42,967 nt of DNA from IMG/VR virus record IMGVR_UViG_2563366803_000007, positions 1 to 42,967 of that record, one strand, 5' to 3'. Both the position numbers and the translations under genes were made by a program. The stretch is from a virus. Its lineage: Duplodnaviria > Heunggongvirae > Uroviricota > Caudoviricetes. The notes under the pieces were generated by a model. The model had not been told where the DNA came from and ran no database searches. It saw nothing but the letters and a program-made list of their open reading frames with translations. Shown piece by piece: positions 3,633 to 39,004 of this stretch; position 1 is the stretch's first letter; each line of letters starts with the position of its first letter.

Positions 3633-4501
3633 TATGCGTACTCCTCAATGATGACATAGCCGTTAGCGCCCTTCCCTGATGCCCTGGCGATTGAGTCATA
3701 TGATGCGCCAGCACCACCTCCACCAGGGAAAAATCCATCATCACCGGATGAACTAACGTGTGGAAGGCCACCATAACTACTGTGCGATGCGCCACCTACA
3801 CCACCCAGGCTTACACCTGATCCTCCCTGTCCTCCCTGACCAGCCACTGAGAATATTGTCCCAACAGATGGAGCTCCCGGAATTCCGCCAGCAGAATTAC
3901 CAGCAGACTTTCCCCCCTTACCACCGCCAGCAGAGATACCCAACGCGGTAATGGTAGTGTCTCCCCCATCACCGCCATCCCCTGCATTCCCTGCTGCAAC
4001 TGCCGCGCCACCAGCGCCAATAACGATATTCGCCCCATTAATGGTGCTTACGTCATATAATCCCTCAACATATGCACCACCCGCCCCACTAGGTGCACCA
4101 GTCCCTGCGACGTCTGTTCCCTTACCCCCACCGCCTGCACCCCATGCTTTAATTCTGACTTTTTTAGTGCCAGCAGTTTTTACCCATGCTCCGCTAGCGG
4201 TAAAAACCTGAATGCGGAGCAGGCGTCCTTCTGCCTGATTATTAAGTGCGGACTTGAGAATATTTAGTAACGTGGCAATGTTCCCATTATCCAGGACATC
4301 GCTTCCTGTGCTATCCGCCATGAATTGTGCAAGGACGGCAGCAATTGTAGAGGATTGCCGTAGTGCTTTATTTACTTGTGCTGACGAGGCTTTGCCGGAA
4401 AGAAAACCAGATGCCAGTACAGATAGCGCTTCATAATCAGCCTGTGATAATACGTTTGCCCCGCTACCAGTAGCGAAGGGTTTAAAATCGTTAGTCGCCA
4501 T
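3632..4501 (-). CDS. Tail fibre protein with glycine-rich repeat region (289 aa from ATG at 4499..4501)
   Basis: N-terminus MATNDFKPFATGSGANVLSQADYEAL; long Gly-rich GAGGGGKG/GGDGGDGG tracts; TAATG overlap with upstream gene. Confidence 0.55.
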   Translation of the reverse strand: MATNDFKPFATGSGANVLSQADYEALSVLASGFLSGKASSAQVNKALRQSSTIAAVLAQFMADSTGSDVLDNGNIATLLNILKSALNNQAEGRLLRIQVFTASGAWVKTAGTKKVRIKAWGAGGGGKGTDVAGTGAPSGAGGAYVEGLYDVSTINGANIVIGAGGAAVAAGNAGDGGDGGDTTITALGISAGGGKGGKSAGNSAGGIPGAPSVGTIFSVAGQGGQGGSGVSLGGVGGASHSSYGGLPHVSSSGDDGFFPGGGGAGASYDSIARASGKGANGYVIIEEYA

Positions 4502-29779: not shown

Positions 29780-31156
29780 TCATACGTCAGCCCCTTGTGC
29801 ATATCGTCTGCCACGCGCAGCAGGTGCATTTGATGCTGTGCAAATCTGTCTGGCTTCATCCTGGTCACATGCAACAAAGTGTCCGTTACAGAACCGCTGG
29901 TAAACCGTACCAAGCGAGCCAAAACGGTTTTTCGTCACGATGATTTCAGCAAATGGCGCGGCGCTACTGTTCTCGTCATATACCGCTTCCCGATAGAGCA
30001 TGATGATTGAGTCTGCGTCCTGCTCAATGCTTCCTGAATCACGCAAATCTGCGTTTGTCGGGCGTTTGTTTGGTCGCTTCTCAACATCGCGCGAAAGCTG
30101 ACTCAGGGAGATAACCGGTGTTTTCAGGTCTTTCGCCATCGCCTTCAGGCTTCCGGAGATGTGAGCAATTGCGAGGTCGTTGCGATCTGCTTTCGGCTTC
30201 TCAATCAGGCCAAGATAATCCGCCATGATGAGTGACAGGTTTGGATTTTCCTGTTTGTGCCGTTCTGCGATTGAGCGTATTTCTTCGACCGATAACCGCG
30301 AGGCATCGACTACCCATACATCCAAATCTGCAAGCTGACTCATGCCGTTAGCAACGCGCGCCCAGCCTTCGTCATCCATCGATGCAGGATTTCGCAGCAC
30401 GCTAACCGACATCCTCCCGGCGTTGGCAATGCTTCGCTCTGCAATCTGCAATGCGCTCATTTCCATTGAGAAAATCAATACTCCGCGCCGGACGTCAGAA
30501 CCAGGAATAACGCGGCTTGCAACGCCTTCGGCAATCTTCAGCGCCAGTTCGGTTTTCCCCATGCCAGGACGGGCAGCGATTATCACCAGGTCTTCCGCGT
30601 TCATCCCTCCGGTGATGACATCAAGTTCTTCGATTCCGGTCTTCAGGGTATCTGACTCTTCTCCGTTCCTCAGACGCCTGTCAAGCGTGTCAGTGTAGTC
30701 AGTGATGATTTCCCCTAACCGTACAGGTTTAACCTCGTCACGGGGCTTTCTGATGGCTGAAAGACGTTTTACAAGCTCGTCCATCGCCTGACTCGATGCG
30801 TCGATGGTTCCGCTCTGAATTGGTTCACGCATTTCATCCATGATTTCCAGCACCAGACGGCGGTGATAGTTATCCGCGACCATTCCGGCATATCCCTTCA
30901 GGTTTGCGGCGCTCGGGCAGTTTTTGCTGGTCATCAGGATTGACGTGAAATGCTCCTCTCCGCACGCCTCGGCAACCATCAGCGCGTCGATTAGGTTTCT
31001 GTTTCTCGCCTGCTTGCGGATAACCTCGAAGGCTTTCCGGTAGAGCGGAATTGAAAACGCTTCCGGCTCTAGCGTTGCCAGAACGTCGCTGGCGGTTGGT
31101 GTTAATCCACCAATCAGCAGGCCACCGATAACGCTCGCTTCGATATCCTGTCTCAT
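29780..31156 (-). CDS. DnaB-type replicative helicase (P22 gene 12-like, 458 aa)
   Basis: Walker A GMGKT in [17 protein letters not shown]; DnaB-like C-terminal region. Confidence 0.85.
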
Positions 31157-32100
31157 GCAATCCCCCTGTCTGCAAACTTCCCTTCCCGAACTCCCGTTAA
31201 CGAGTCTTCTCTCAGCAGGTAATCAAAATCAGCCGTCCAGCCCGTGTCGTTGTCTCCGAAGTAAAACGGCTTGGCCTGATGCACAAACGCCCTGACATAC
31301 GCTCTGAAACCGTCCACGTTTGGCGTTTTCAGTTGCGGGATGATTTTCTTCAGGCGGCGTTTGCGTTTCTCGTTGACCGCAACAGCGTGTGGAAGTCTGT
31401 CACCGACTTCGGTGTTGTAGGCGTTCAGGAAGGATTCGTAGTCGATTCGTTCTGCCTTTCGACGTTCAGGTTTAACCTGCCCATCGCCTCCCCCATTGGG
31501 GGGTAGGGGGGTATTATTTATATTCTTGTTAATACCTTCTTGTTCATGATGTGCGGTTGTTTGTGCGGCTTCATGTGCGCTTTCATGTGCGGCATGCACT
31601 CTGAAAGCCGCGCCATTGCTGGCTTCGTCATGTGCGGCATCATGTGCGGTTGTTTGTGCGGCTTCATGTGCGGGTGAATCGTCCATTTTTTGAGCATATT
31701 CATGGTAATTTGTGATGGTAATCACACGACCTTTTTGCTTCTCTCCATCAATGGTGATCATCCCCTCTTTCACAAAAACCTGAAGCATCCGCTCAACCTG
31801 ATCACGGCTTGCTGGCTTGCCATGCCTGTCGCATAACTGAAGACCTAAATCAGCTGCTGTCACAACCAGTTGACCGGGTTGCAGATGCCATTCATGACCT
31901 TTGAAATTCGCTTTGTATGGCTTTCTGGCGGCATTCAGGAGAAGGTTTTCCCACAGGGTACGAAGATAAACATCTTTCGCCCATGACTGTTTCAGAATGC
32001 TCCGGTACAACGGAATGTAACCAGTTTTCTGGTTCTCCATCCTGTTGCTCCTGCGCTCGTGTGCGGCGCTGAAATCGTAGATTTTTGCTGTATTGCTCAT
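31153..32100 (-). CDS. Replication initiator (O / P22 gene 18-like, 315 aa) containing the origin iterons
   Basis: N-terminus [10 protein letters not shown] resembles lambda O (MTNTAKILNF); internal repeated HEAAQTTAH peptides encoded by iterons; upstream of helicase. Confidence 0.7.
31548..31673. repeat. Origin iterons: about eight copies of (C/T)ATGTGCGG at 12-bp spacing inside the O-like gene, next to a G-rich/AT-rich tract (31501..31540)
   Basis: Direct repeats read from sequence, arranged as two near-identical ~35-bp blocks. Confidence 0.7.
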
Positions 32101-32102
32101 AA

Positions 32103-32375
32103 CTACCTGCCTTGACGAAAGACCTTAAGAACATCGTTAAACTGACTTACGGATATGTCTTCTTTGAGCAGCTTTTCCAGAAATGCATTTGGAATGAACG
32201 TATATCCCTCCTCTTTTGGTAGAGACGGGAGCAACGTCCTTGCCTCAGCCTTCAGAAGCTCAGTTCTGGCAACTTTCACAAAAGAGATTTGAGTTCTTTC
32301 ATCAATGGAACGAAGGAAGCGCAAACGCTTAACTTCTTTGTGTGTATCAGGTGGATTAAAGCCTTTGTTTCGCAT
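32103..32375 (-). CDS. Hypothetical protein (90 aa) inserted between cII and the O-like gene
   Basis: ATG at 32373..32375 with GAGG RBS; in lambda, cII and O are separated by only about 30 bp. Confidence 0.5.
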   Translation of the reverse strand: MRNKGFNPPDTHKEVKRLRFLRSIDERTQISFVKVARTELLKAEARTLLPSLPKEEGYTFIPNAFLEKLLKEDISVSQFNDVLKVFRQGR

Positions 32376-32386
32376 ATAATTACCTC

Positions 32387-32456
32387 GCTGGATGTTGTTA
32401 AAATTCCATTTGTATTTGATCAGAACGCTCGGTCTTGCACACCGGGCGTTTTTTAT
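32387..32456 (+). ncRNA. oop: oop-like antisense RNA overlapping the 3' end of cII, with intrinsic terminator
   Basis: 3' region GATCAGAACGCTCGG...CCGGGCGTTTTTTATT resembles lambda oop from memory; perfect TATAAT at 32375..32380; 5' end approximate. Confidence 0.5.
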
Positions 32457-32694
32457 TGGTGAGAATCGAAGCAACTTGTCGTGCCAATCGAGCCATATCG
32501 TCGTCAACGACGCCCCATTCAAGAACAGCAAGCAGCATTGAGAACTTTGGAATCCAATCCCTCTTCCACCTGCTGATCTGCGACTTATCAACTCCCACAG
32601 CTTCCGCTGTCTTCTCAGTTCCAAGCATTGCGATTTTGTTAAGCAACGCACTCTCGATTCGTAGTGCCTCGTTGCGTTTGTTTGCACGAACCAT
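32398..32694 (-). CDS. cII: Transcriptional activator CII (98 aa)
   Basis: MVRANKRNEALRIESALLNKIAMLGTEKTAEAVGVDKSQISRWKRDWIPKFSMLLAVLEWGVVDDDMARLARQV matches lambda CII from memory. Confidence 0.9.
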   Translation of the reverse strand: MVRANKRNEALRIESALLNKIAMLGTEKTAEAVGVDKSQISRWKRDWIPKFSMLLAVLEWGVVDDDMARLARQVASILTNKKRPVCKTERSDQIQMEF

Positions 32695-32773
32695 ATGTAA
32701 GTATTTCCTTAGATAACAATTGATTGAATGTATGCAAATAAATGCATACACCATAGGTGTGGTTTAATTTGAT

Positions 32774-32788
32774 GCCCTTTTTCAGGGC
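32774..32788 (-). promoter_or_regulatory. nutR boxB-like hairpin (GCCCTGAAAAAGGGC on the minus strand)
   Basis: Palindromic hairpin between cro and cII as in lambda. Confidence 0.6.
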
Positions 32789-32812
32789 TGGAATGTGTAA
32801 GAGCGGGGTTAT

Positions 32813-33022
<210 letters not shown>

Positions 33023-33039
33023 TTAGTACATGCAACCAT

Positions 33040-33103
33040 TATCACCGCCAGAGGTAAAATAGTCAACACGCACGGTGTTAGATATTTATCCCTTGCGGTG
33101 ATA
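33040..33103. promoter_or_regulatory. Right operator OR1-OR2-OR3 with divergent PR and PRM promoters
   Basis: OR1 TATCACCGCCAGAGGTA (33040..33056), OR2 CAACACGCACGGTGTTA (33064..33080), OR3 TATCCCTTGCGGTGATA (33087..33103), all lambda operator sequences. Confidence 0.9.
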
Positions 33104-33110
33104 GATTTAA

Positions 33111-33827
<717 letters not shown>

Positions 33828-33939
33828 TCGGCAAGGTGTTCTGGTCGGCGCATAGCTGATAACAATTGAGCAAGAATCTTCATCGAATTAGGGGAATTTT
33901 CACTCCCCTCAGAACATAACATAGTAAATGGATTGAATT

Positions 33940-34779
33940 ATGAAGAATGGTTTTTATGCGACTTACCGCAGCAAAAATAAAGGGAAAGATAAGCGCTCAA
34001 TAAACCTGTCTGTTTTCCTTAATTCTCTGCTGGCTGATAATCATCACCTGCAGGTTGGCTCCAATTATTTGTATATTCATAAAATCGATGGAAAAACTTT
34101 TCTCTTTACCAAAACAAATGACAAGAGTCTGGTTCAGAAGATAAATCGCTCTAAAGCTTCAGTTGAAGATATTAAGAACAGCCTCGCAGATGACGAATCA
34201 TTGGGATTCCCATCTTTTTTGTTTGTTGAAGGCGACACCATTGGTTTTGCCAGAACTGTTTTCGGGCCGACCACATCCGATCTGACAGATTTTTTAATCG
34301 GGAAAGGAATGTCATTAAGCAGTGGAGAGCGCGTTCAGATAGAGCCACTGATGAGGGGAACCACCAAAGACGATGTTATGCATATGCATTTCATCGGCCG
34401 AACAACGGTGAAGGTAGAAGCCAAGCTACCTGTATTTGGCGATATATTAAAGGTCTTAGGGGCAACAGATATTGAAGGGGAGCTTTTTGACTCATTGGAT
34501 ATAGTCATTAAGCCAAAATTTAAAAGGGATATAAAAAAGGTTGCCAAGGATATTATTTTTAACCCGTCACCTCAATTTTCAGACATTAGCCTGCGGGCAA
34601 AAGATGAGGCCGGAGATATTTTAACAGAACATTATCTATCAGAAAAAGGCCATCTCTCAGCGCCTCTGAACAAGGTCACCAATGCTGAGATAGCTGAAGA
34701 GATGGCATATTGCTACGCAAGAATGAAAAGTGATATACTGGAATGTTTTAAAAGGCAGGTGGGCAAAGTTAAGGATTAA
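33940..34779 (+). CDS. rexA: RexA exclusion protein (279 aa)
   Basis: Length and position immediately downstream of cI as in lambda. Confidence 0.85.
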   Translation: MKNGFYATYRSKNKGKDKRSINLSVFLNSLLADNHHLQVGSNYLYIHKIDGKTFLFTKTNDKSLVQKINRSKASVEDIKNSLADDESLGFPSFLFVEGDTIGFARTVFGPTTSDLTDFLIGKGMSLSSGERVQIEPLMRGTTKDDVMHMHFIGRTTVKVEAKLPVFGDILKVLGATDIEGELFDSLDIVIKPKFKRDIKKVAKDIIFNPSPQFSDISLRAKDEAGDILTEHYLSEKGHLSAPLNKVTNAEIAEEMAYCYARMKSDILECFKRQVGKVKD

Positions 34780-34794
34780 TTATCAGGAGTAATT

Positions 34795-35229
34795 ATGCGG
34801 AACAGAATCATGCCTGGTGTTTACATAGTAATAATTCCTTACGTTATCGTAAGCATTTGCTATCTCCTTTTCCGCCACTACATTCCTGGTGTTTCTTTTT
34901 CAGCTCATAGAGATGGTCTTGGGGCGACATTGTCATCATATGCAGGAACCATGATTGCAATCCTGATTGCTGCCTTGACGTTTCTAATCGGAAGCAGAAC
35001 GCGCCGACTGGCCAAGATTAGAGAGTATGGGTATATGACATCGGTAGTTATTGTCTATGCCCTTAGTTTTGTTGAGCTTGGAGCTTTGTTTTTCTGCGGG
35101 TTATTGCTTCTTTCCAGCATAAGCGGCTACATGATACCCACTATCGCCATCGGCATTGCCTCTGCATCGTTCATTCATATATGCATCCTTGTTTTCCAAC
35201 TATATAATTTGACCAGAGAACAAGAATAA
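34795..35229 (+). CDS. rexB: RexB membrane protein (144 aa)
   Basis: Multi-pass hydrophobic protein, length and position as lambda RexB. Confidence 0.85.
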   Translation: MRNRIMPGVYIVIIPYVIVSICYLLFRHYIPGVSFSAHRDGLGATLSSYAGTMIAILIAALTFLIGSRTRRLAKIREYGYMTSVVIVYALSFVELGALFFCGLLLLSSISGYMIPTIAIGIASASFIHICILVFQLYNLTREQE

Positions 35230-35402
35230 CCCGGCCTCAGCGCCGGGTTTTCTTTGCCTCACGATCGCCCCCAAAACACATAACCAATTGTATTTATTGA
35301 AAAATAAATAGATACAACTCACTAAACATAGCAATTCAGATCTCTCACCTACCAAACAATGCCCCCCTGCAAAAAATAAATTCATATAAAAAACATACAG
35401 AT

Positions 35403-35465
35403 AACCATCTGCGGTGATAAATTATCTCTGGCGGTGTTGACATAAATACCACTGGCGGTGATACT
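35403..35465 (+). promoter_or_regulatory. Left operator OL3-OL2-OL1 with PL promoter (-35 TTGACA, -10 GATACT)
   Basis: Three 17-bp lambda operator sequences: AACCATCTGCGGTGATA, TATCTCTGGCGGTGTTG, TACCACTGGCGGTGATA. Confidence 0.9.
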
Positions 35466-35504
35466 GAGCACATCAGCAGGACGCACTGACCACCATGAAG
35501 GTGA

Positions 35505-35535
35505 CGCTCTTAAAAATTAAGCCCTGAAGAAGGGC
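35505..35535 (+). promoter_or_regulatory. nutL (boxA CGCTCTTA, boxB GCCCTGAAGAAGGGC)
   Basis: Lambda nutL sequence between PL and N. Confidence 0.75.
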
Positions 35536-35733
35536 AGCATTCAAAGCAGAAGGCTTTGGGATTGGATGAATGAGCAGGCTGATGCTCGACCAATGTATAA
35601 ACAGCGCTCATGGCAAGCAGTAACCAATCTGCGCCTCAAGACAGCGTCACTGGTAGTGCGGGCGCTCTAACCAGTAAGCCGGGGTTCAGCGCCGGCCATC
35701 CAATCACCAAAGCTAACTGACAGGAGAATCCAG

Positions 35734-36060
35734 ATGGATGCACAAACACGCCGCCGCGAACGTCGCGCAGAGAAACAGGCTCAATGGAAAGCAGCAAATC
35801 CCCTGTTGGTTGGGGTAAGCGCAAAACCAGTTAACCGCCCTATTCTCTCGCTGAATCGCAAACCGAAATCACGAGTAGAAAGCGCACTGAATCCGATAGA
35901 CCTTACGGTGCTGGCTGAATACCACGAACAGATTGAAAGCAACCTGCAACGTATTGAGCGCAAGAATCAGCGCACATGGTACAGCAAGCCACGCAGTGAA
36001 ATGGGTGTGACTTGTGTTGGTCGCCAGAAAATGAAATTAGGCAGCAAACCACTTATTTGA
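35734..36060 (+). CDS. N: Antiterminator N (108 aa)
   Basis: MDAQTRRRERRAEKQAQWKAANPLLVGVSAKPVNRPILSLNRKPKSRVESALNPIDLTVLAEYHEQIESNLQRIERKNQRTWYSKPRSEMGVTCVGRQKMKLGSKPLI matches lambda N from memory. Confidence 0.95.
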   Translation: MDAQTRRRERRAEKQAQWKAANPLLVGVSAKPVNRPILSLNRKPKSRVESALNPIDLTVLAEYHEQIESNLQRIERKNQRTWYSKPRSEMGVTCVGRQKMKLGSKPLI

Positions 36061-36068
36061 GGTGATAT

Positions 36069-36344
36069 ATGGAATTTCATGAAAGTGCGATTTGTGATTT
36101 TCGCGCTAACGCAAATTCAGTAAAACCACAGCCAATTGCAGTTCTTTTTAAAACAATGGGTGCGTGGGCTGTTTTATGCTTCGCCGCTGATGACACTGAC
36201 GCAAGAATGGCAATAGGCCAAGAGATGGAGATGGACCCGACAAACGATGAATTCATAATTTATGGCGCTCCATCTAATTACTTACTTGATACCTGCAACA
36301 TTTACAACAAGGCTGCCTTATGGTGGCCTTTATTTTTGGCATAA
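36069..36344 (+). CDS. Hypothetical protein (91 aa)
   Basis: ORF immediately downstream of N; no recognised family. Confidence 0.45.
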   Translation: MEFHESAICDFRANANSVKPQPIAVLFKTMGAWAVLCFAADDTDARMAIGQEMEMDPTNDEFIIYGAPSNYLLDTCNIYNKAALWWPLFLA

Positions 36345-36456
36345 ACAACAGAATAAACACTGCACTGTGTATTCATTCCAACGAGTGAATACACGGAGCA
36401 ATGTCGCTCGTAACTAAACAGGAGCCGACTTGTTCTGATTATTGGAAATCTTCTTT

Positions 36457-36485
36457 GCCCTCCAGTGCGTGAGGGCGATTTTTTT
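36457..36485 (+). terminator. Rho-independent terminator (tL1-like): GCCCTC-CAGTGCGT-GAGGGC followed by a T-run
   Basis: Hairpin and seven T residues read from sequence, ending 4 nt before the downstream RBS. Confidence 0.55.
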
Positions 36486-36497
36486 GATGGAGGATAT

Positions 36498-37466
36498 ATG
36501 AGTGAAGTAACAGATTTAGTTGTTATTGAAAAAGCAAATGCAATGACTGTATTTCAGTCTGCCGACCAGATTGAAGAAATCCTTCAAAAGGTTGAACGTG
36601 AAGTTATGTCCTTTGTGCCTGATATCACAACGGCAAAGGGCAGAAAGGAGATCGCTTCTCTGGCGTATAAAGTTGCGCAGACGAAAACATATCTCGATGG
36701 TCTTGGCAAAGACCTTGTTGCTGAACTGAAGGAAATTCCAAAGCTAATTGATGCCAACCGCAAGACAGTGCGTGATCGCCTTGATGAGCTGAAAGCCAAG
36801 GCACGCCAGCCTCTTACTGATTATGAGGAAGAACGGGCGCGGATTAAAGCCGAAGAAGAAGCTAAGGCAGCAGCTGAAGCTCTCGCAAAGCAAATTGAGT
36901 CTGACCATGAAATAGCGATTTTGATGGATCGCGAATTTGACCGCCAAAGAGAAGAGGCAAGACTCAAAGCGGAGCAGGAAAAGCGAGAGCATGAAGAACG
37001 CTTAAAAAAAGAAGCTGAAGAGAAAGCCAGAGCTGAAGCCGAAGCAAAGGCAAAAGCCGAAATTGAAGCAGCAGCAAGGCGAGAAGCAGAAGCTAAGGCC
37101 GCAGCGGAACGTGCAGAGCGTGAACGCATTGAAGCCGAGCAACGAGCACAGCGCGAAGCAAAAGAGGCAGCAGAACGAGCTGAAAGAGAAAAGCAGGCGG
37201 CAATTGAAGCAGAACGCCGAAAAGCACAGGAGGAGGCTGAACGAATCCGGCGCGAGGCTGAAGCAAAAGAGCAAGCCAGAATAGCAGAAGAAAAAAGAAT
37301 CAAGGACGAAGAAGAGCGTAGAGCAAAGGATAAAGCTCACCGGAAAGAAGTAAATAACAAAATACTTGCTGACCTTATCAAGGTTGGCGCATCAGAAGAT
37401 GTTGCTAAAAATATCATAACAGCCATCGTAAAAGGCGAAGTATTCGCAACAAAAATAACCTACTAA
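36498..37466 (+). CDS. Hypothetical protein (322 aa) with structured N-terminal domain and about 200-aa Ala/Glu/Lys/Arg-rich coiled-coil (TolA-like) region
   Basis: GGAGGA RBS then ATG at 36498; long EAKAKAEAEA-type repeat tract; track ORF starts at an upstream GTG. Confidence 0.5.
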   Translation: MSEVTDLVVIEKANAMTVFQSADQIEEILQKVEREVMSFVPDITTAKGRKEIASLAYKVAQTKTYLDGLGKDLVAELKEIPKLIDANRKTVRDRLDELKAKARQPLTDYEEERARIKAEEEAKAAAEALAKQIESDHEIAILMDREFDRQREEARLKAEQEKREHEERLKKEAEEKARAEAEAKAKAEIEAAARREAEAKAAAERAERERIEAEQRAQREAKEAAERAEREKQAAIEAERRKAQEEAERIRREAEAKEQARIAEEKRIKDEEERRAKDKAHRKEVNNKILADLIKVGASEDVAKNIITAIVKGEVFATKITY

Positions 37467-37490
37467 TAAAACCAACATAAGGAACCACCC

Positions 37491-37622
37491 ATGATTTACG
37501 CAATCGCGGGAGGCGCTCGCATGGGTGCCTTCCAATTAAATGAATCTTTACTTGAACGAATCACCCGTAAATTACGTGACGGATGGAAAAGAGTTGAGGT
37601 CTTATTATGCGCAATGAAATAG
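37491..37622 (+). CDS. cIII: CIII-like protease inhibitor (43 aa)
   Basis: Shares ESLLERITRKLRDGWKR core with lambda CIII from memory. Confidence 0.8.
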   Translation: MIYAIAGGARMGAFQLNESLLERITRKLRDGWKRVEVLLCAMK

Positions 37623-37759
37623 CCATCAATCACCAGATGCTTCGTGCGGCACAAAACAAAGCAGTAATAGCCCGATTTATTGGTGATTCGAAAATGTGGC
37701 TTGAAGCAAATAAAGCGATGAAATCAGCTATCAACCTTCCGTGGTATCGCAGGAAATGA
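37607..37759 (+). CDS. kil: Kil-like host division inhibitor (50 aa)
   Basis: Overlaps the cIII 3' end as in lambda; FIGD-KM block recalled from lambda Kil. Confidence 0.5.
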   Translation: MRNEIAINHQMLRAAQNKAVIARFIGDSKMWLEANKAMKSAINLPWYRRK

Positions 37760-37914
37760 GTTTTACAGATAACTGGTCAGACGAAGAATTCATTCGTCAG
37801 ATGAAAGAATTAATCGGTAACGAAGGAGATATTCATGTCACTTGCAACCACAGTGAAGGAGAGCAAGTTACAGAGACGCATGTACACGCAGAAAGCTCTC
37901 TGGTATCGCCATAA
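37756..37914 (+). CDS. Small hypothetical protein (52 aa), possibly Arf-like
   Basis: ATGA-coupled to kil; position upstream of erf. Confidence 0.3.
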   Translation: MSFTDNWSDEEFIRQMKELIGNEGDIHVTCNHSEGEQVTETHVHAESSLVSP

Positions 37915-38015
37915 TGGCGACCGCGAAGGAATGCGGGTATGCCTTAATTTGTCCCGAGTCGAAGTATTAAATCAGCGTTATTTCCTTGGGTCGTGTCCAT
38001 TCTGAGAACAATCAT

Positions 38016-38621
38016 ATGAGCAAAGAATTTTACGCAAGACTGGCAGCTATTCAGGAGAATCTGAACGCGCCAAAGAATCAGTACAACTCATTCGGTAAAT
38101 ATAAATACAGAAGCTGCGAAGATATTCTTGAAGGCGTTAAGCCGTTACTGAATGGTCTGTTTTTATCAATCAGCGATGAAGTTGTGTTGATTGGTGATCG
38201 GTATTACGTGAAAGCCACGGCAACTATTACCGATGGCGAAAACAGCCATACAGCAACCGCTCTTGCACGAGAGGAAGAAAGCAAGAAAGGAATGGATTCT
38301 GCACAAGTTACGGGAGCTACAAGCTCTTATGCACGCAAGTATTGCCTCAATGGTTTGTTCGGCATTGATGATGCGAAAGATGCAGATACAGACGAGCATA
38401 AACATCAGCAGAACGCAGCAGCAAAGCAATCAAAACCATCACCTACACCTGAACAGGTTCTAAAAGCATTCACTGACGCAGCAATGCAGAAAAACACCGT
38501 AGAAGAGCTTAAACAGGCGTTCGCCAAAGCGTGGAAGATGCTCGAAGGCACACCTGAGCAGCACAAAGCGCAGGACGTTTACAACATCAGACGAGACGAA
38601 TTAGAAGGAGCTGCTGCTTAA
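38016..38621 (+). CDS. erf: Erf single-strand annealing recombinase (201 aa from internal ATG)
   Basis: MSKEFYARLAAIQENLNAPKNQYNSFGKYKYRSCEDILEGVKP matches P22 Erf N-terminus from memory. Confidence 0.85.
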   Translation: MSKEFYARLAAIQENLNAPKNQYNSFGKYKYRSCEDILEGVKPLLNGLFLSISDEVVLIGDRYYVKATATITDGENSHTATALAREEESKKGMDSAQVTGATSSYARKYCLNGLFGIDDAKDADTDEHKHQQNAAAKQSKPSPTPEQVLKAFTDAAMQKNTVEELKQAFAKAWKMLEGTPEQHKAQDVYNIRRDELEGAAA

Positions 38622-39004
38622 TGGCACATTCGATTACTGTAAGACTAAACAAGCCCGCAAGAGAGTTTCAGGCCGGGGAAAATATCGGATTCAACATCCG
38701 TGCTGGCGTTCAGTATTACGATCGCCAGACAAAAAAGAAAGAATGGACAAACTACAGCGCCGTTGTATTTGCCAAGCCGGGAGCGCAAGCGGATTACTAC
38801 CGTAGTGTTCTTGTTGAAGGTGGCATTGTTGAAATTACCGGAGAAAACATCAGGGTTGATGTTTATCAGGGGCAAAATGGTCAATCAATCACTCTTGAAT
38901 TACTGAATGCAAAGATTGGATTTGCAACTTCAGGAAACAGCCAACAGCAGCAAAGTAGCAATCATCAAAATCATCCTGAATACGACGATTCAATTCCCTT
39001 CTAG
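38621..39004 (+). CDS. Short SSB-like single-stranded DNA-binding protein (127 aa)
   Basis: C-terminal acidic tail DDSIPF (SSB tail is DDDIPF) after a Gln-rich linker; coupled to erf. Confidence 0.55.
   Translation: MAHSITVRLNKPAREFQAGENIGFNIRAGVQYYDRQTKKKEWTNYSAVVFAKPGAQADYYRSVLVEGGIVEITGENIRVDVYQGQNGQSITLELLNAKIGFATSGNSQQQQSSNHQNHPEYDDSIPF

What the first reader, a model, noticed from the sequence alone, without database searches (positions are those of the whole stretch)
32103..32456. Extra gene inserted between cII and the O-like replication gene, overlapping an oop-like antisense RNA promoter
In lambda, cII and O are about 30 bp apart, with oop antisense RNA overlapping the cII 3' end. 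Here a 90-aa ORF with a good RBS (GAGG, ATG at 32373..32375) fills that junction. Its start lies next to a perfect TATAAT (32375..32380) on the opposite strand that would drive the oop-like RNA, whose terminator and 3' sequence are conserved. The O-like gene keeps only the first ~10 residues of lambda O ([10 protein letters not shown]) before diverging, which marks a recombination junction.
Basis: partly seen in the sequence, partly recalled or inferred. Interest (0 to 1): 0.45.

Follow-up and report, generated by a model that had tools for sequence, protein, structure and literature searches.

The report
Small conserved gene preceding phage replication initiator
The 90-codon frame between cII and the replication initiator is a real, conserved phage gene of unknown function whose start sits inside the promoter of a lambda-oop-like antisense RNA; other lambda-like phages such as P22 and HK97 have the same layout, so this is an ordinary mosaic junction, not a new kind of element.

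Summary
A 90-aa ORF (32103-32375, minus strand) with a GAGG ribosome-binding site lies between cII and an O-like initiator. A perfect TATAAT (32375-32380, plus strand) overlaps its start codon, upstream of an oop-like terminator.

The ORF is a real gene. Its dN/dS is 0.06-0.13. It matches phrog_2519 over its full length. It occurs in about 5% of complete E. coli genomes. In 12 loci, with homologues down to about 40% identity, it sits in the order cII - ORF - initiator - DnaB-type helicase.

TATAAT and a roughly 70-nt two-hairpin antisense RNA are conserved in all 12 loci, and the terminator stem shows compensatory changes. Lambda has the same layout: its pO -10 (CATAAT) overlaps the O start codon. 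P22 (orf48) and HK97 (gp53) carry small ORFs in the same slot, and this layout is published.

The mosaic joint with lambda lies in the cII 3' end/oop terminator (about 32400-32455), not at codon 10 of O. The MSNTAK motif is a general feature of O-like N-termini.

New here: residues 54-88 of the ORF are homologous to residues 23-59 of lambda/HK97-type initiators. The ORF therefore contains a retained stump of an initiator gene. Its function is untested. My best guess is a non-DNA-binding modulator of replication initiation.

The parts
32103..32375 (-). ORF90: 90-aa protein-coding gene (phrog_2519), first cistron of the replication module
   Evidence: full-length family match; dN/dS 0.06-0.13; both halves under purifying selection; length and C-terminus conserved.
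32383..32386 (-). Shine-Dalgarno GAGG of ORF90, 7 nt before the ATG
   Evidence: sequence. GAGG, TAGG or GGAG is kept at this position in all homologous loci.
32375..32380 (+). -10 hexamer TATAAT of the pO-like promoter, overlapping the complement of the ORF90 start codon
   Evidence: present in 12 of 12 full-length loci. In L016 it is displaced by 2 nt relative to the ATG, so the hexamer is what is kept, not its spacing to the ATG. The lambda equivalent, CATAAT, overlaps the O ATG (PMC3985674).
32352..32357 (+). Candidate -35 (TGGATT, 17-nt spacer), weak and not conserved
   Evidence: 3/6 match; differs between loci (TGGATG, TGGCAT, TGGTAC, TTGGTT). The promoter did not pass the consensus scan.
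32387..32457 (+). Predicted oop-like antisense RNA, about 71 nt, with a 5' hairpin and a terminator hairpin. It is complementary to the cII 3' end and the cII-ORF90 spacer. The start site is inferred as 7 nt after the -10.
   Evidence: fold -20.3 kcal/mol; homologous loci give 68-73 nt RNAs; lambda oop is about 77-80 nt. Not experimentally mapped.
32422..32452 (+). Intrinsic terminator hairpin of the antisense RNA, followed by a T-run to 32457, inside the last codons of cII
   Evidence: 12 pairs, 6 G-C; two stem pairs show compensatory double changes (AU/GC/UA and GC/UA) and only one of 96 cells is unpaired. L015, L016, L020, L021 and L024 have different hairpin sequences at the same place.
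32398..32691 (-). cII (97 aa), lambda type, diverging only in its last ~20 codons
   Evidence: (PF05269, E 3e-47).
32400..32455 (.). Mosaic joint between the imm-lambda block and the replication module
   Evidence: identity 95-100% falling to 87%, 72% and then about 45%; the 99.5% block ends at 32405. Stx2a phages share the module only up to about 32463.
31153..32100 (-). O-like initiator (315 aa). It starts 2 nt after the ORF90 stop, with an AGG 5 nt upstream inside the ORF90 3' end.
   Evidence: (PF04492, E 3.6e-15), 4, 101, 107: the N-domain is shared with Klebsiella phage Mulock O; the C-terminal 135 aa are 83% identical to those of a gp18-type initiator.
32075..32103 (+). Degenerate pO-like relic over the O-like start codon (TCGTAG-17-CATAAC)
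   Evidence: Read from the sequence and compared with lambda pO, TTGAGT-17-CATAAT. It lacks the final T of the -10. Other loci have CATCGC here. Probably inactive (inference).
31543..31685 (.). Origin iterons (12-nt period, CATGTGCGG core) inside the O-like gene, encoding a His-rich linker
29780..31156 (-). DnaB-family replicative helicase, 90% identical to P22 gp12

Best explanation
SHOWN.
- ORF90 is a genuine, conserved early gene. It is the first cistron of a P22-type replication module (ORF90, then an initiator with a gp18-type C-domain, then a gp12/DnaB-type helicase).
- That module has been joined to a lambda immunity region by recombination inside the conserved cII 3' end/oop segment.
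- The ORF90 start codon is embedded in the -10 of a conserved pO/oop-type antisense unit. The predicted RNA is about 70 nt and ends at a terminator inside cII. In lambda, the O start codon is embedded in pO in the same way.
- The protein is chimeric in origin. Residues 54-88 descend from residues 23-59 of a lambda/HK97/P22-type initiator N-domain (first strand plus two helices of the winged helix). The recognition helix and wing are missing.
- The basic N-terminal helical hairpin shares a short motif with P22 orf48 at the same offset from the N-terminus.

INFERRED (mechanism).
- ORF90 is transcribed from pR, and its translation probably runs on into the initiator cistron.
- It probably acts as a small protein that cannot bind DNA and that mimics part of an initiator. 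It would use the retained initiator element to bind initiator N-domains or their partner, and so modulate assembly of the origin complex or helicase recruitment. The target could be its own module or co-resident rival lambdoid phages.
- The oop-like RNA probably down-regulates cII as in lambda, and pO transcription probably opposes pR read-through.
For: Real gene:
- dN/dS is 0.06-0.13, against ratios above 1.7 in four of the five other frames and 0.27 in the fifth. pN is far below pS in both halves across 28 pairs.
- Full-length match to phrog_2519, E 8e-57.
- Found in 285 of 5426 complete E. coli genomes, 278 of them over at least 80% of the query.

Synteny:
- The order cII, 20-28 nt spacer, ORF, then a 2-nt gap or 4-8-nt overlap, initiator, DnaB-type helicase where the contig reaches that far, holds in 12 loci with homologues down to about 40% identity.

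Module type:
- The helicase is 90% identical to P22 gp12.
- The initiator C-domain is gp18-type.
- The same initiator N-domain combined with a P-type loader, in Klebsiella and Yersinia phages, has no ORF90.

pO/oop unit:
- TATAAT is kept in 12 of 12 loci. Predicted RNAs are 68-73 nt with two hairpins.
- The terminator stem shows compensatory changes.
- Codon 2 uses the same Arg codon, CGA, in all six lineages, although synonymous sites elsewhere vary freely.
- In lambda, pO lies 2 bp from the O start (PMC3985674).

Joint with lambda.

Initiator stump:
- 16 of 19 family members hit PF04492 positions 5-39, best E 5e-5.
- hhalign against lambda O gives P 0.0014.
- The C-half HMM scores 11.6 bits on average against lambda, P22, HK97 and L021 initiators, versus -2.9 +/- 1.1 for shuffles; 0 of 2000 shuffles reach it. 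HK97 O scores 22 bits.

N-half versus DUF2740: 2 of 2000 shuffles reach the observed score.

Structure: AF2 model with pLDDT 83, showing a helical hairpin, a short beta-hairpin and two helices.
Against: - No experiment or annotated homologue gives a function. Fold searches found nothing.
- Near-identical helicase and gp18-C modules carry unrelated or barely related small ORFs in the slot (P22 orf48, HK97 gp53). Related initiators in Klebsiella and Yersinia phages carry a ParB-like or a KilAC gene there, also with overlapping stop and start. So the slot behaves like a variable accessory position, and stop-start coupling is generic to it, not specific to ORF90.
- ORF90 pairs with at least four different initiator N-domains. 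This argues against a specific fit to its own initiator's origin-binding domain.
- The -35 of the antisense promoter is weak and unconserved, and the promoter failed the consensus scan.
- The RNA and the protein have not been observed.
Confidence: 0.45

Rival explanations
1. ORF90 is an accessory ('moron-like') early gene unrelated to replication, for example host takeover, anti-defence or exclusion. It merely occupies the recombination-permissive slot between the conserved oop segment and the initiator gene, and its link to the module is physical only.
For: - The slot holds unrelated cargo in related modules: DUF2740 in P22, gp53 in HK97, a ParB-like protein in Klebsiella phage Mulock, and KilAC plus a 59-aa ORF in a Yersinia phage.
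- Overlapping stop and start with the initiator is seen for that cargo too.
- ORF90 is independent of the initiator N-domain type.
- The family is narrow: 14 representatives in 1.84 billion proteins.
Against: - It has no promoter or terminator of its own, as classic morons do.
- Synteny is invariant down to about 40% identity.
- Its best-supported homology is to an initiator domain.
- There is no meaningful hit to defence libraries: PADLOC gives only JetB at E 0.02.
Confidence: 0.3
2. What matters is translation of the ORF rather than its product. ORF90 would serve as a leader cistron that delivers ribosomes to the initiator start and houses the pO spacer and -35. Initiator synthesis would then be tied to events at the cII/oop junction, functionally like the leader peptides coupled to rep genes in antisense-controlled plasmids (R1 tap/repA; from my own knowledge).
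For: - There is a 2-nt gap or a 4-8-nt overlap with the initiator start in every locus.
- The first 12 nt of the ORF are conserved at the nucleotide level, including the Arg codon CGA, which is rare in E. coli by my own knowledge.
- The 5' end of the antisense RNA abuts the ORF's SD.
Against: - Purifying selection acts on all 90 codons in both halves, and the C-terminus (FRQGR) is conserved. That is far more than a leader needs.
- The predicted antisense RNA starts just 3' of the SD complement and so does not cover the SD or ATG.
- In lambda, oop does not affect O-P mRNA, and pO- only slightly raises O (PMC3985674).
Confidence: 0.1
3. ORF90 is a dominant-negative decoy aimed at rival phages. 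The retained fragment of a lambda/HK97/P22-type initiator N-domain would poison oligomerisation of such initiators from co-induced prophages or co-infecting phages, while its own initiator carries a divergent N-domain.
For: - The stump matches lambda/HK97-type initiators (HK97 O 22 bits, lambda O 11.8) but hardly matches the initiators it travels with. hhalign against the window-type O family gives P 0.27, and L021's own gp18-like initiator scores only 1.5 bits.
- It lacks the DNA-recognition half of the domain.
- Many E. coli genomes carry several lambdoid prophages (my own knowledge).
Against: Entirely inferential. It is not known that residues 23-59 of O mediate oligomerisation. The gene is repressed in the lysogen, so it cannot protect against superinfection.
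Confidence: 0.1
4. ORF90 is a chance open frame or a decaying relic of an initiator gene with no present function.
For: Part of it is indeed a stump of an initiator gene. CUS-3's original annotation did not call it.
Against: - dN/dS is 0.06-0.13 with saturated synonymous sites.
- Length, start and stop are conserved over 12 loci and at least 9 lineages.
- The SD is conserved.
Confidence: 0.03

Closest known systems
P22 orf48 (Pfam DUF2740, phrog_1913) and HK97 gp53: small ORFs between cII/c1 and the initiator gene
   Same: - Same slot: directly after the cII-type gene and directly before, or overlapping, the initiator gene of a gp18 plus DnaB-type helicase module.
- The start codon lies under the oop promoter -10, which is annotated in the P22 record.
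- Small, basic, helical proteins of unknown function.
- A 17-residue motif, HK.(V/I)(K/L)R.RFL.S, is shared with orf48 at the same offset.
   Different: - ORF90 is about twice as long and carries an extra C-terminal initiator-derived segment.
- There is no Pfam DUF2740 hit, and profile-profile comparison gives only P 0.04.
- gp53 shows no evident similarity by eye; it was not formally compared.
Lambda pO promoter / oop antisense RNA
   Same: - Antisense to the cII 3' end.
- The -10 overlaps the start codon of the gene after cII.
- The 5' end of the RNA abuts that gene's SD.
- Two-hairpin RNA with an intrinsic terminator inside cII. The 3' 50 nt are 87-99% identical to lambda (PMC3985674, PMC3349717).
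   Different: - The -10 is TATAAT rather than CATAAT, the -35 is weaker (3/6 against 4/6), and the predicted RNA is about 71 nt rather than 77.
- The promoter and the first ~18 nt of the RNA belong to the replication module, not to lambda.
- The gene under the promoter is ORF90, not the initiator.
- Untested experimentally.
N-terminal origin-binding domain of lambda O / P22 gp18 / HK97 O (Pfam Phage_rep_O, PF04492)
   Same: Residues 54-88 of ORF90 align with residues 23-59 of these initiators: GY/F-x-x-(I/L)-x-N ... (D/E)L(S/T)-x-x-Q-(F/M) ... (F/L)R.
   Different: Only the first ~35 of 95 domain positions are present. The score is below Pfam's threshold (14.6 against 28.7 bits). There is no recognition helix or wing, no iteron-coded linker and no C-terminal domain, so it cannot be an initiator.
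Leader-peptide coupling of plasmid rep genes under antisense control (R1 tap/repA-CopA; from my own knowledge)
   Same: A short upstream cistron abuts the initiator start, with a small antisense RNA transcribed from the opposite strand at its 5' side.
   Different: ORF90 is long and under selection as a protein. The predicted antisense RNA does not cover its SD or ATG, and it targets cII rather than the leader.

Membership tests
phrog_2519 (uncharacterised phage protein family) | Full-length match to the family HMM | tested here: met
   E 7.9e-57, residues 1-90 on profile positions 1-90 of 90. Diverged homologues also match.
Lambda-type pO/oop antisense unit | Short transcript antisense to the 3' end of the cII-type gene, ending at an intrinsic terminator inside cII | tested here: met
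   Terminator at 32422-32452 plus a T-run. Compensatory pairs. Equivalent hairpins with different sequences in 5 diverged loci. 87-99% identity to lambda oop 3' sequence.
Lambda-type pO/oop antisense unit | Sigma-70 -10 hexamer overlapping the start codon of the gene that follows cII | tested here: met
   TATAAT at 32375-32380 overlaps the CAT at 32373-32375. Kept in 12 of 12 loci. Lambda has CATAAT over the O ATG (PMC3985674).
Lambda-type pO/oop antisense unit | Recognisable -35 hexamer at 16-18 nt | tested here: inconclusive
   TGGATT (3/6), variable among loci. The site was not reported by the consensus scan.
Lambda-type pO/oop antisense unit | The transcript exists and lowers cII expression (RNase III-dependent in lambda) | not testable with these tools
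   Needs 5' RACE or RNA-seq plus genetics. Rfam holds no oop model: lambda's own oop gives no hit, so the negative result says nothing.
Phage_rep_O (PF04492) replication initiators | Domain match at or above Pfam's gathering score, covering the winged-helix domain | tested here: not met
   14.6 bits against a 28.7 cut-off; only profile positions 6-39 of 95. Best family member about 20-24 bits. The partial homology is real, but ORF90 is a fragment, not a member.
DUF2740 (PF10872; P22 orf48) | Match to the family profile | tested here: not met
   No PF10872 hit at E <= 1 for any of 19 members. hhalign P 0.04.
DUF2740 (PF10872; P22 orf48) | Short collinear motif indicating distant common origin | tested here: inconclusive
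   Family-level HMM score 5.75 bits against -0.5 +/- 1.2 for shuffles; 2 of 2000 shuffles reach it; only 17 aligned residues.
[quoted passage not shown] | Small ORF between oop and the initiator gene, with its start at the pO -10 | tested here: met
   PMC3349717 describes this organisation and names P22 orf48, HK620 hkaW and HK97 gp53 as examples.
Antisense-controlled leader peptide of a rep gene (R1 tap type) | The antisense RNA pairs with the leader's translation-initiation region | tested here: not met
   The inferred start (32387) lies 1 nt beyond the SD complement (32383-32386), so the RNA covers neither the SD nor the ATG. The start site is inferred, not mapped.

The most novel reading that the evidence does not exclude
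ORF90 is a domesticated stump of a lambda/HK97-type initiator gene. It would work as an initiator mimic: a small protein that cannot bind DNA and that caps or poisons the N-domain assemblies of such initiators. It would thereby tune replication of its own module or, more interestingly, sabotage rival lambdoid prophages induced in the same cell.
Probability: 0.12. Interest if true: 0.55.

Novelty: new member of a known kind. Interest (0 to 1): 0.27.

Why it matters
The result tidies the reading of a very common mosaic junction; the ORF is in about 5% of complete E. coli genomes, including Stx2a phages.
- The extra gene is real.
- The oop/pO unit is conserved around it.
- The true recombination joint lies in the cII 3' end/oop segment.

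The modestly new point is that the gene contains a conserved fragment of a replication-initiator domain. This gives a concrete, cheap hypothesis for one of the small unknown ORFs that sit in front of P22-type replication genes. If that ORF modulates initiation or interferes with rival phages, it would bear on prophage induction and competition in Stx-phage lysogens. If not, it remains an ordinary hypothetical accessory gene.

Tried and rejected
- Rfam scan of the region: no hit. A control on lambda's own oop was also negative, so Rfam simply lacks the family.
- PDB sequence profile search: nothing.
- NCBIfam: nothing.
- PADLOC: only JetB at E 0.02, taken as noise.
- Exhaustive HMM search of 1.84 billion representatives: only 14 hits, all the same small family or fragments, and no full-length initiator.
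- Profile-profile comparison with the neighbouring O-like family: not significant, P 0.27.
- Co-divergence of ORF90 with cII, the initiator N-domain, the initiator C-domain or the helicase: mosaic, with no informative correlation.
- A programmed-frameshift fusion of ORF90 to the initiator: rejected, because the frame offset is not constant among loci (L016 differs).
- 'orf48' in accessory-gene screens (PMC12373910): an unrelated numbering (gnarl1), not P22 orf48.
- No paper mentions DUF2740.
- The idea that MSNTAK marks a lambda joint: rejected.

Full report
**Layout**

The window is inverted relative to the lambda map. On the plus strand are cI (33114-33827) and rexA/rexB. On the minus strand, in order, are:
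- cro (33013-32813)
- cII (32691-32398)
- the 90-aa ORF (32375-32103)
- an O-like initiator (32100-31153)
- a DnaB-family helicase (31156-29780)

GAGG sits 7 nt before the ORF's ATG. TATAAT (32375-32380, plus strand) shares a base with the complement of that ATG. A 12-pair hairpin plus T-run lies at 32422-32457 on the plus strand, inside the last codons of cII.

**Is the ORF a gene?**

Yes.
- It matches phrog_2519 end to end (E 8e-57).
- Near-identical copies (about 97-98% amino-acid identity) occur in CUS-3, JEP4, HF4s, Gally, Kapi1 and about 50 Stx2a phages, and the DNA occurs in 285 of 5426 complete E. coli genomes.
- Homologues at 70-80% identity occur in Salmonella and Scandinavium prophages. 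Homologues at 40-63% were found by an exhaustive HMM search.
- Against these homologues, synonymous sites are saturated while dN is 0.06-0.20. dN/dS is 0.06-0.13. The same alignment read in four of the five other frames gives ratios above 1.7, and in the fifth, an antisense frame, 0.27.
- Both halves of the protein are constrained.
- The family is narrow: 14 representatives among 1.84 billion proteins. It has no Pfam or NCBIfam model.

**Context**

In 12 loci representing at least nine diverged lineages the order is always cII, then a 20-28 nt spacer, then the ORF, then a 2-nt gap or a 4-8-nt overlap, then the initiator, then a DnaB-type helicase where the contig reaches that far.

The initiators behind the ORF have at least four different N-terminal origin-binding domains. 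One of them is P22 gp18-like. Wherever the full initiator could be compared it has the gp18-type C-terminal domain, with L015 too diverged to judge (27% identity). The window's helicase is 90% identical to P22 gp12.

The window's initiator N-domain also occurs in Klebsiella phage Mulock and in Yersinia phages. There it is joined to a different C-domain and a P-type loader, and the ORF is absent. The slot instead holds a ParB-like or a KilAC gene.

So the ORF belongs to the P22-type half of the module, not to the origin-binding specificity.

**The antisense unit**

From lambda's own sequence, pO is TTGAGT-17-CATAAT. The -10 lies over the O start codon, and the oop 5' end abuts O's SD. PMC3985674 places the pO- mutation 2 bp from the first O codon.

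The window has the same architecture with ORF90 in place of O.
- TATAAT is kept in all 12 loci. In L016 it is shifted 2 nt relative to the ATG, so the hexamer itself is what is conserved.
- Each locus predicts a 68-73-nt RNA with a 5' hairpin and a terminator hairpin.
- Among the alignable loci, two stem pairs show compensatory double changes (AU/GC/UA and GC/UA). In the L004-L006 lineage these are achieved through synonymous changes in cII.
- Five diverged loci have different hairpin sequences at the same place.
- Codon 2 of the ORF uses the Arg codon CGA in all six lineages examined, while nearly every other conserved residue varies synonymously. This points to nucleotide-level constraint next to the -10.

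There are weak points. The -35 matches only 3 of 6 positions, is not conserved, and the promoter failed the consensus scan. The transcription start is inferred. Rfam cannot help, because lambda's own oop finds no family.

**Where is the recombination joint?**

Window 32405-35560 is 99.5% identical to lambda 35494-38646, that is, from nutL through rexB, rexA, cI and cro to cII. Identity is 95-100% through cII, then 87% and 72% across the oop terminator, then about 45% beyond the cII stop. Stx2a phages share the module only up to about 32463.

The joint is therefore the conserved cII 3'/oop segment. PMC3349717 describes this segment as a 33-bp region of high homology among lambdoid phages.

The [11 protein letters not shown]-terminus is not a joint.
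- Related motifs head O-like proteins that lack the ORF upstream: MNTAEILKF in Mulock and MSTAKLFDI in the Yersinia phage.
- It resembles the N-terminal ClpX recognition signal of lambda O. That comparison is from my own knowledge (Flynn et al. 2003) and was not tested here.
- Over the O-like start there is only a degenerate pO relic, TCGTAG-17-CATAAC.

**Precedents**

The P22 record annotates an oop terminator, an oop promoter and orf48 (48 aa). orf48 starts under that promoter and overlaps gene 18. HK97 has gp53 in the same place. [quoted passage not shown] The arrangement is thus known; ORF90 is another occupant of the slot.

**What the protein is made of**

AF2 gives a model with pLDDT 83: a basic helical hairpin (residues 11-51), a short beta-hairpin (54-59) and two helices (63-71, 76-86). 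It has no significant structural neighbours.

The C-terminal third recurrently hits the first 35 positions of Pfam Phage_rep_O, below the threshold.
- 16 of 19 members hit it, best E 5e-5.
- hhalign against lambda O gives P 0.0014.
- In a column-shuffle test, an HMM of residues 52-90 scored 11.6 bits on average against the first 80 residues of the lambda, P22, HK97 and L021 initiators. Shuffles gave -2.9 +/- 1.1, and 0 of 2000 reached the observed value.
- HK97 O scored 22 bits, aligning ORF residues 54-88 with O residues 23-57.

The ORF ends just where the initiators continue with KTYG(W/F/Y)NK. The recognition helix and wing are absent.

The N-terminal half shares a 17-residue motif with the orf48/DUF2740 family at the same offset (2 of 2000 shuffles), but profile-profile support is weak (P 0.04).

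The simplest history is as follows. A replacement of the initiator gene left the first ~60 codons of a lambda/HK97-type initiator. This stump became joined to, or extended from, the small upstream ORF, and selection has maintained it since.

**Mechanism (inferred)**

The gene is transcribed from pR. Its stop abuts or overlaps the initiator start, so ribosomes probably pass from one to the other. The same geometry holds for unrelated cargo in Klebsiella and Yersinia phages, so coupling does not prove partnership.

My preferred reading, at roughly 35-40% for the mechanism, is a small non-DNA-binding protein that uses the retained initiator element to bind initiator N-domains or their partner. 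It would thereby modulate origin-complex assembly or helicase recruitment.

The main rival, at about 30%, is an accessory gene unrelated to replication. The variable content of the slot in otherwise near-identical modules favours that rival.

A leader-only role is unlikely given selection on all 90 codons. A chance frame or a dead relic is excluded by the substitution pattern.

**Verdict**

This is a known kind of lambdoid junction with an uncharacterised but already catalogued gene family. The one new item is the initiator-derived segment. Interest is low to moderate.

Noticed in passing
window 32405-35560: A 3.16-kb block is 99.5% identical to lambda 35494-38646 (nutL/pL, rexB, rexA, cI, cro, cII). 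The window is therefore an imm-lambda phage or prophage with a non-lambda replication module. Other lambda-like patches (90-100% identity) are scattered through the nin, lysis and early-left regions.
   Followed up: partly
window 31153-32100 (O-like gene): The initiator is itself mosaic. Its N-domain and His-rich linker are shared with Klebsiella phage Mulock O (59% identity over 283 aligned residues; about 80% in the first 140), which works with a P-type loader. Its C-terminal 135 aa are 83% identical to those of a gp18-like initiator (L021) and are homologous to the P22 gp18 C-terminus.
   Followed up: partly
window 31543-31685: There are two clusters of 12-nt-period repeats (CATGTGCGG core) inside the O-like gene, presumably origin iterons. 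They encode a His/Ala-rich linker, [10 protein letters not shown]....
   Followed up: partly
window 32075-32103 (+): A degenerate copy of lambda pO lies over the O-like start codon (TCGTAG-17-CATAAC, against lambda's TTGAGT-17-CATAAT), including a 14-nt stretch identical to lambda (AATACAGCAAAAAT on the coding strand). The motif encodes NTAKI, which resembles the ClpX N-terminal degron of lambda O (own knowledge, untested).
   Followed up: partly
L002 (Stx2a phage 981509), helicase gene at 4220 and beyond: The helicase downstream of the same ORF90-O pair is annotated as 2394 nt, against 1377 nt here. It is nevertheless 99% identical over the part that aligns. This suggests an insertion, possibly an intein or an extra domain, in the Stx2a-phage helicase.
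   Followed up: no
L017 (P22) 1850-1996; phrog_1913: P22 orf48 (DUF2740), an early-operon ORF next to the replication genes, is labelled 'tail protein' in RefSeq and PHROGs. This is probably an annotation error.
   Followed up: no
window 32370-32372 (codon 2 of ORF90): Arg codon CGA (rare in E. coli, by my own knowledge) is invariant in six diverged lineages, and AAC AAA follow unchanged in five of them. Nearly all other conserved residues vary synonymously. This fits constraint from the overlapping promoter spacer or from translation initiation.
   Followed up: partly
whole window: TATAAT is under-represented: 7 occurrences on both strands against 15.6 +/- 3.6 in shuffles.
   Followed up: no
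L005 1552-2457 and L006 1163-2071: In two prophages that carry an ORF90 homologue, a ~300-aa gene sits next to the repressor gene; the L005 copy has a BstA_C domain and so is a BstA-type abortive-infection gene. The family is discussed in PMC8585504.
   Followed up: no
P0001, P0002, P0035 (gene calls of 120-164 aa): Some database gene calls extend ORF90 upstream through the cII 3' end in another frame, or fuse it to cII. The window's own frame is also open back to a GTG at 32687 (194 aa). These longer versions are probably miscalls, because the conserved start is MRNK with its own SD.
   Followed up: partly
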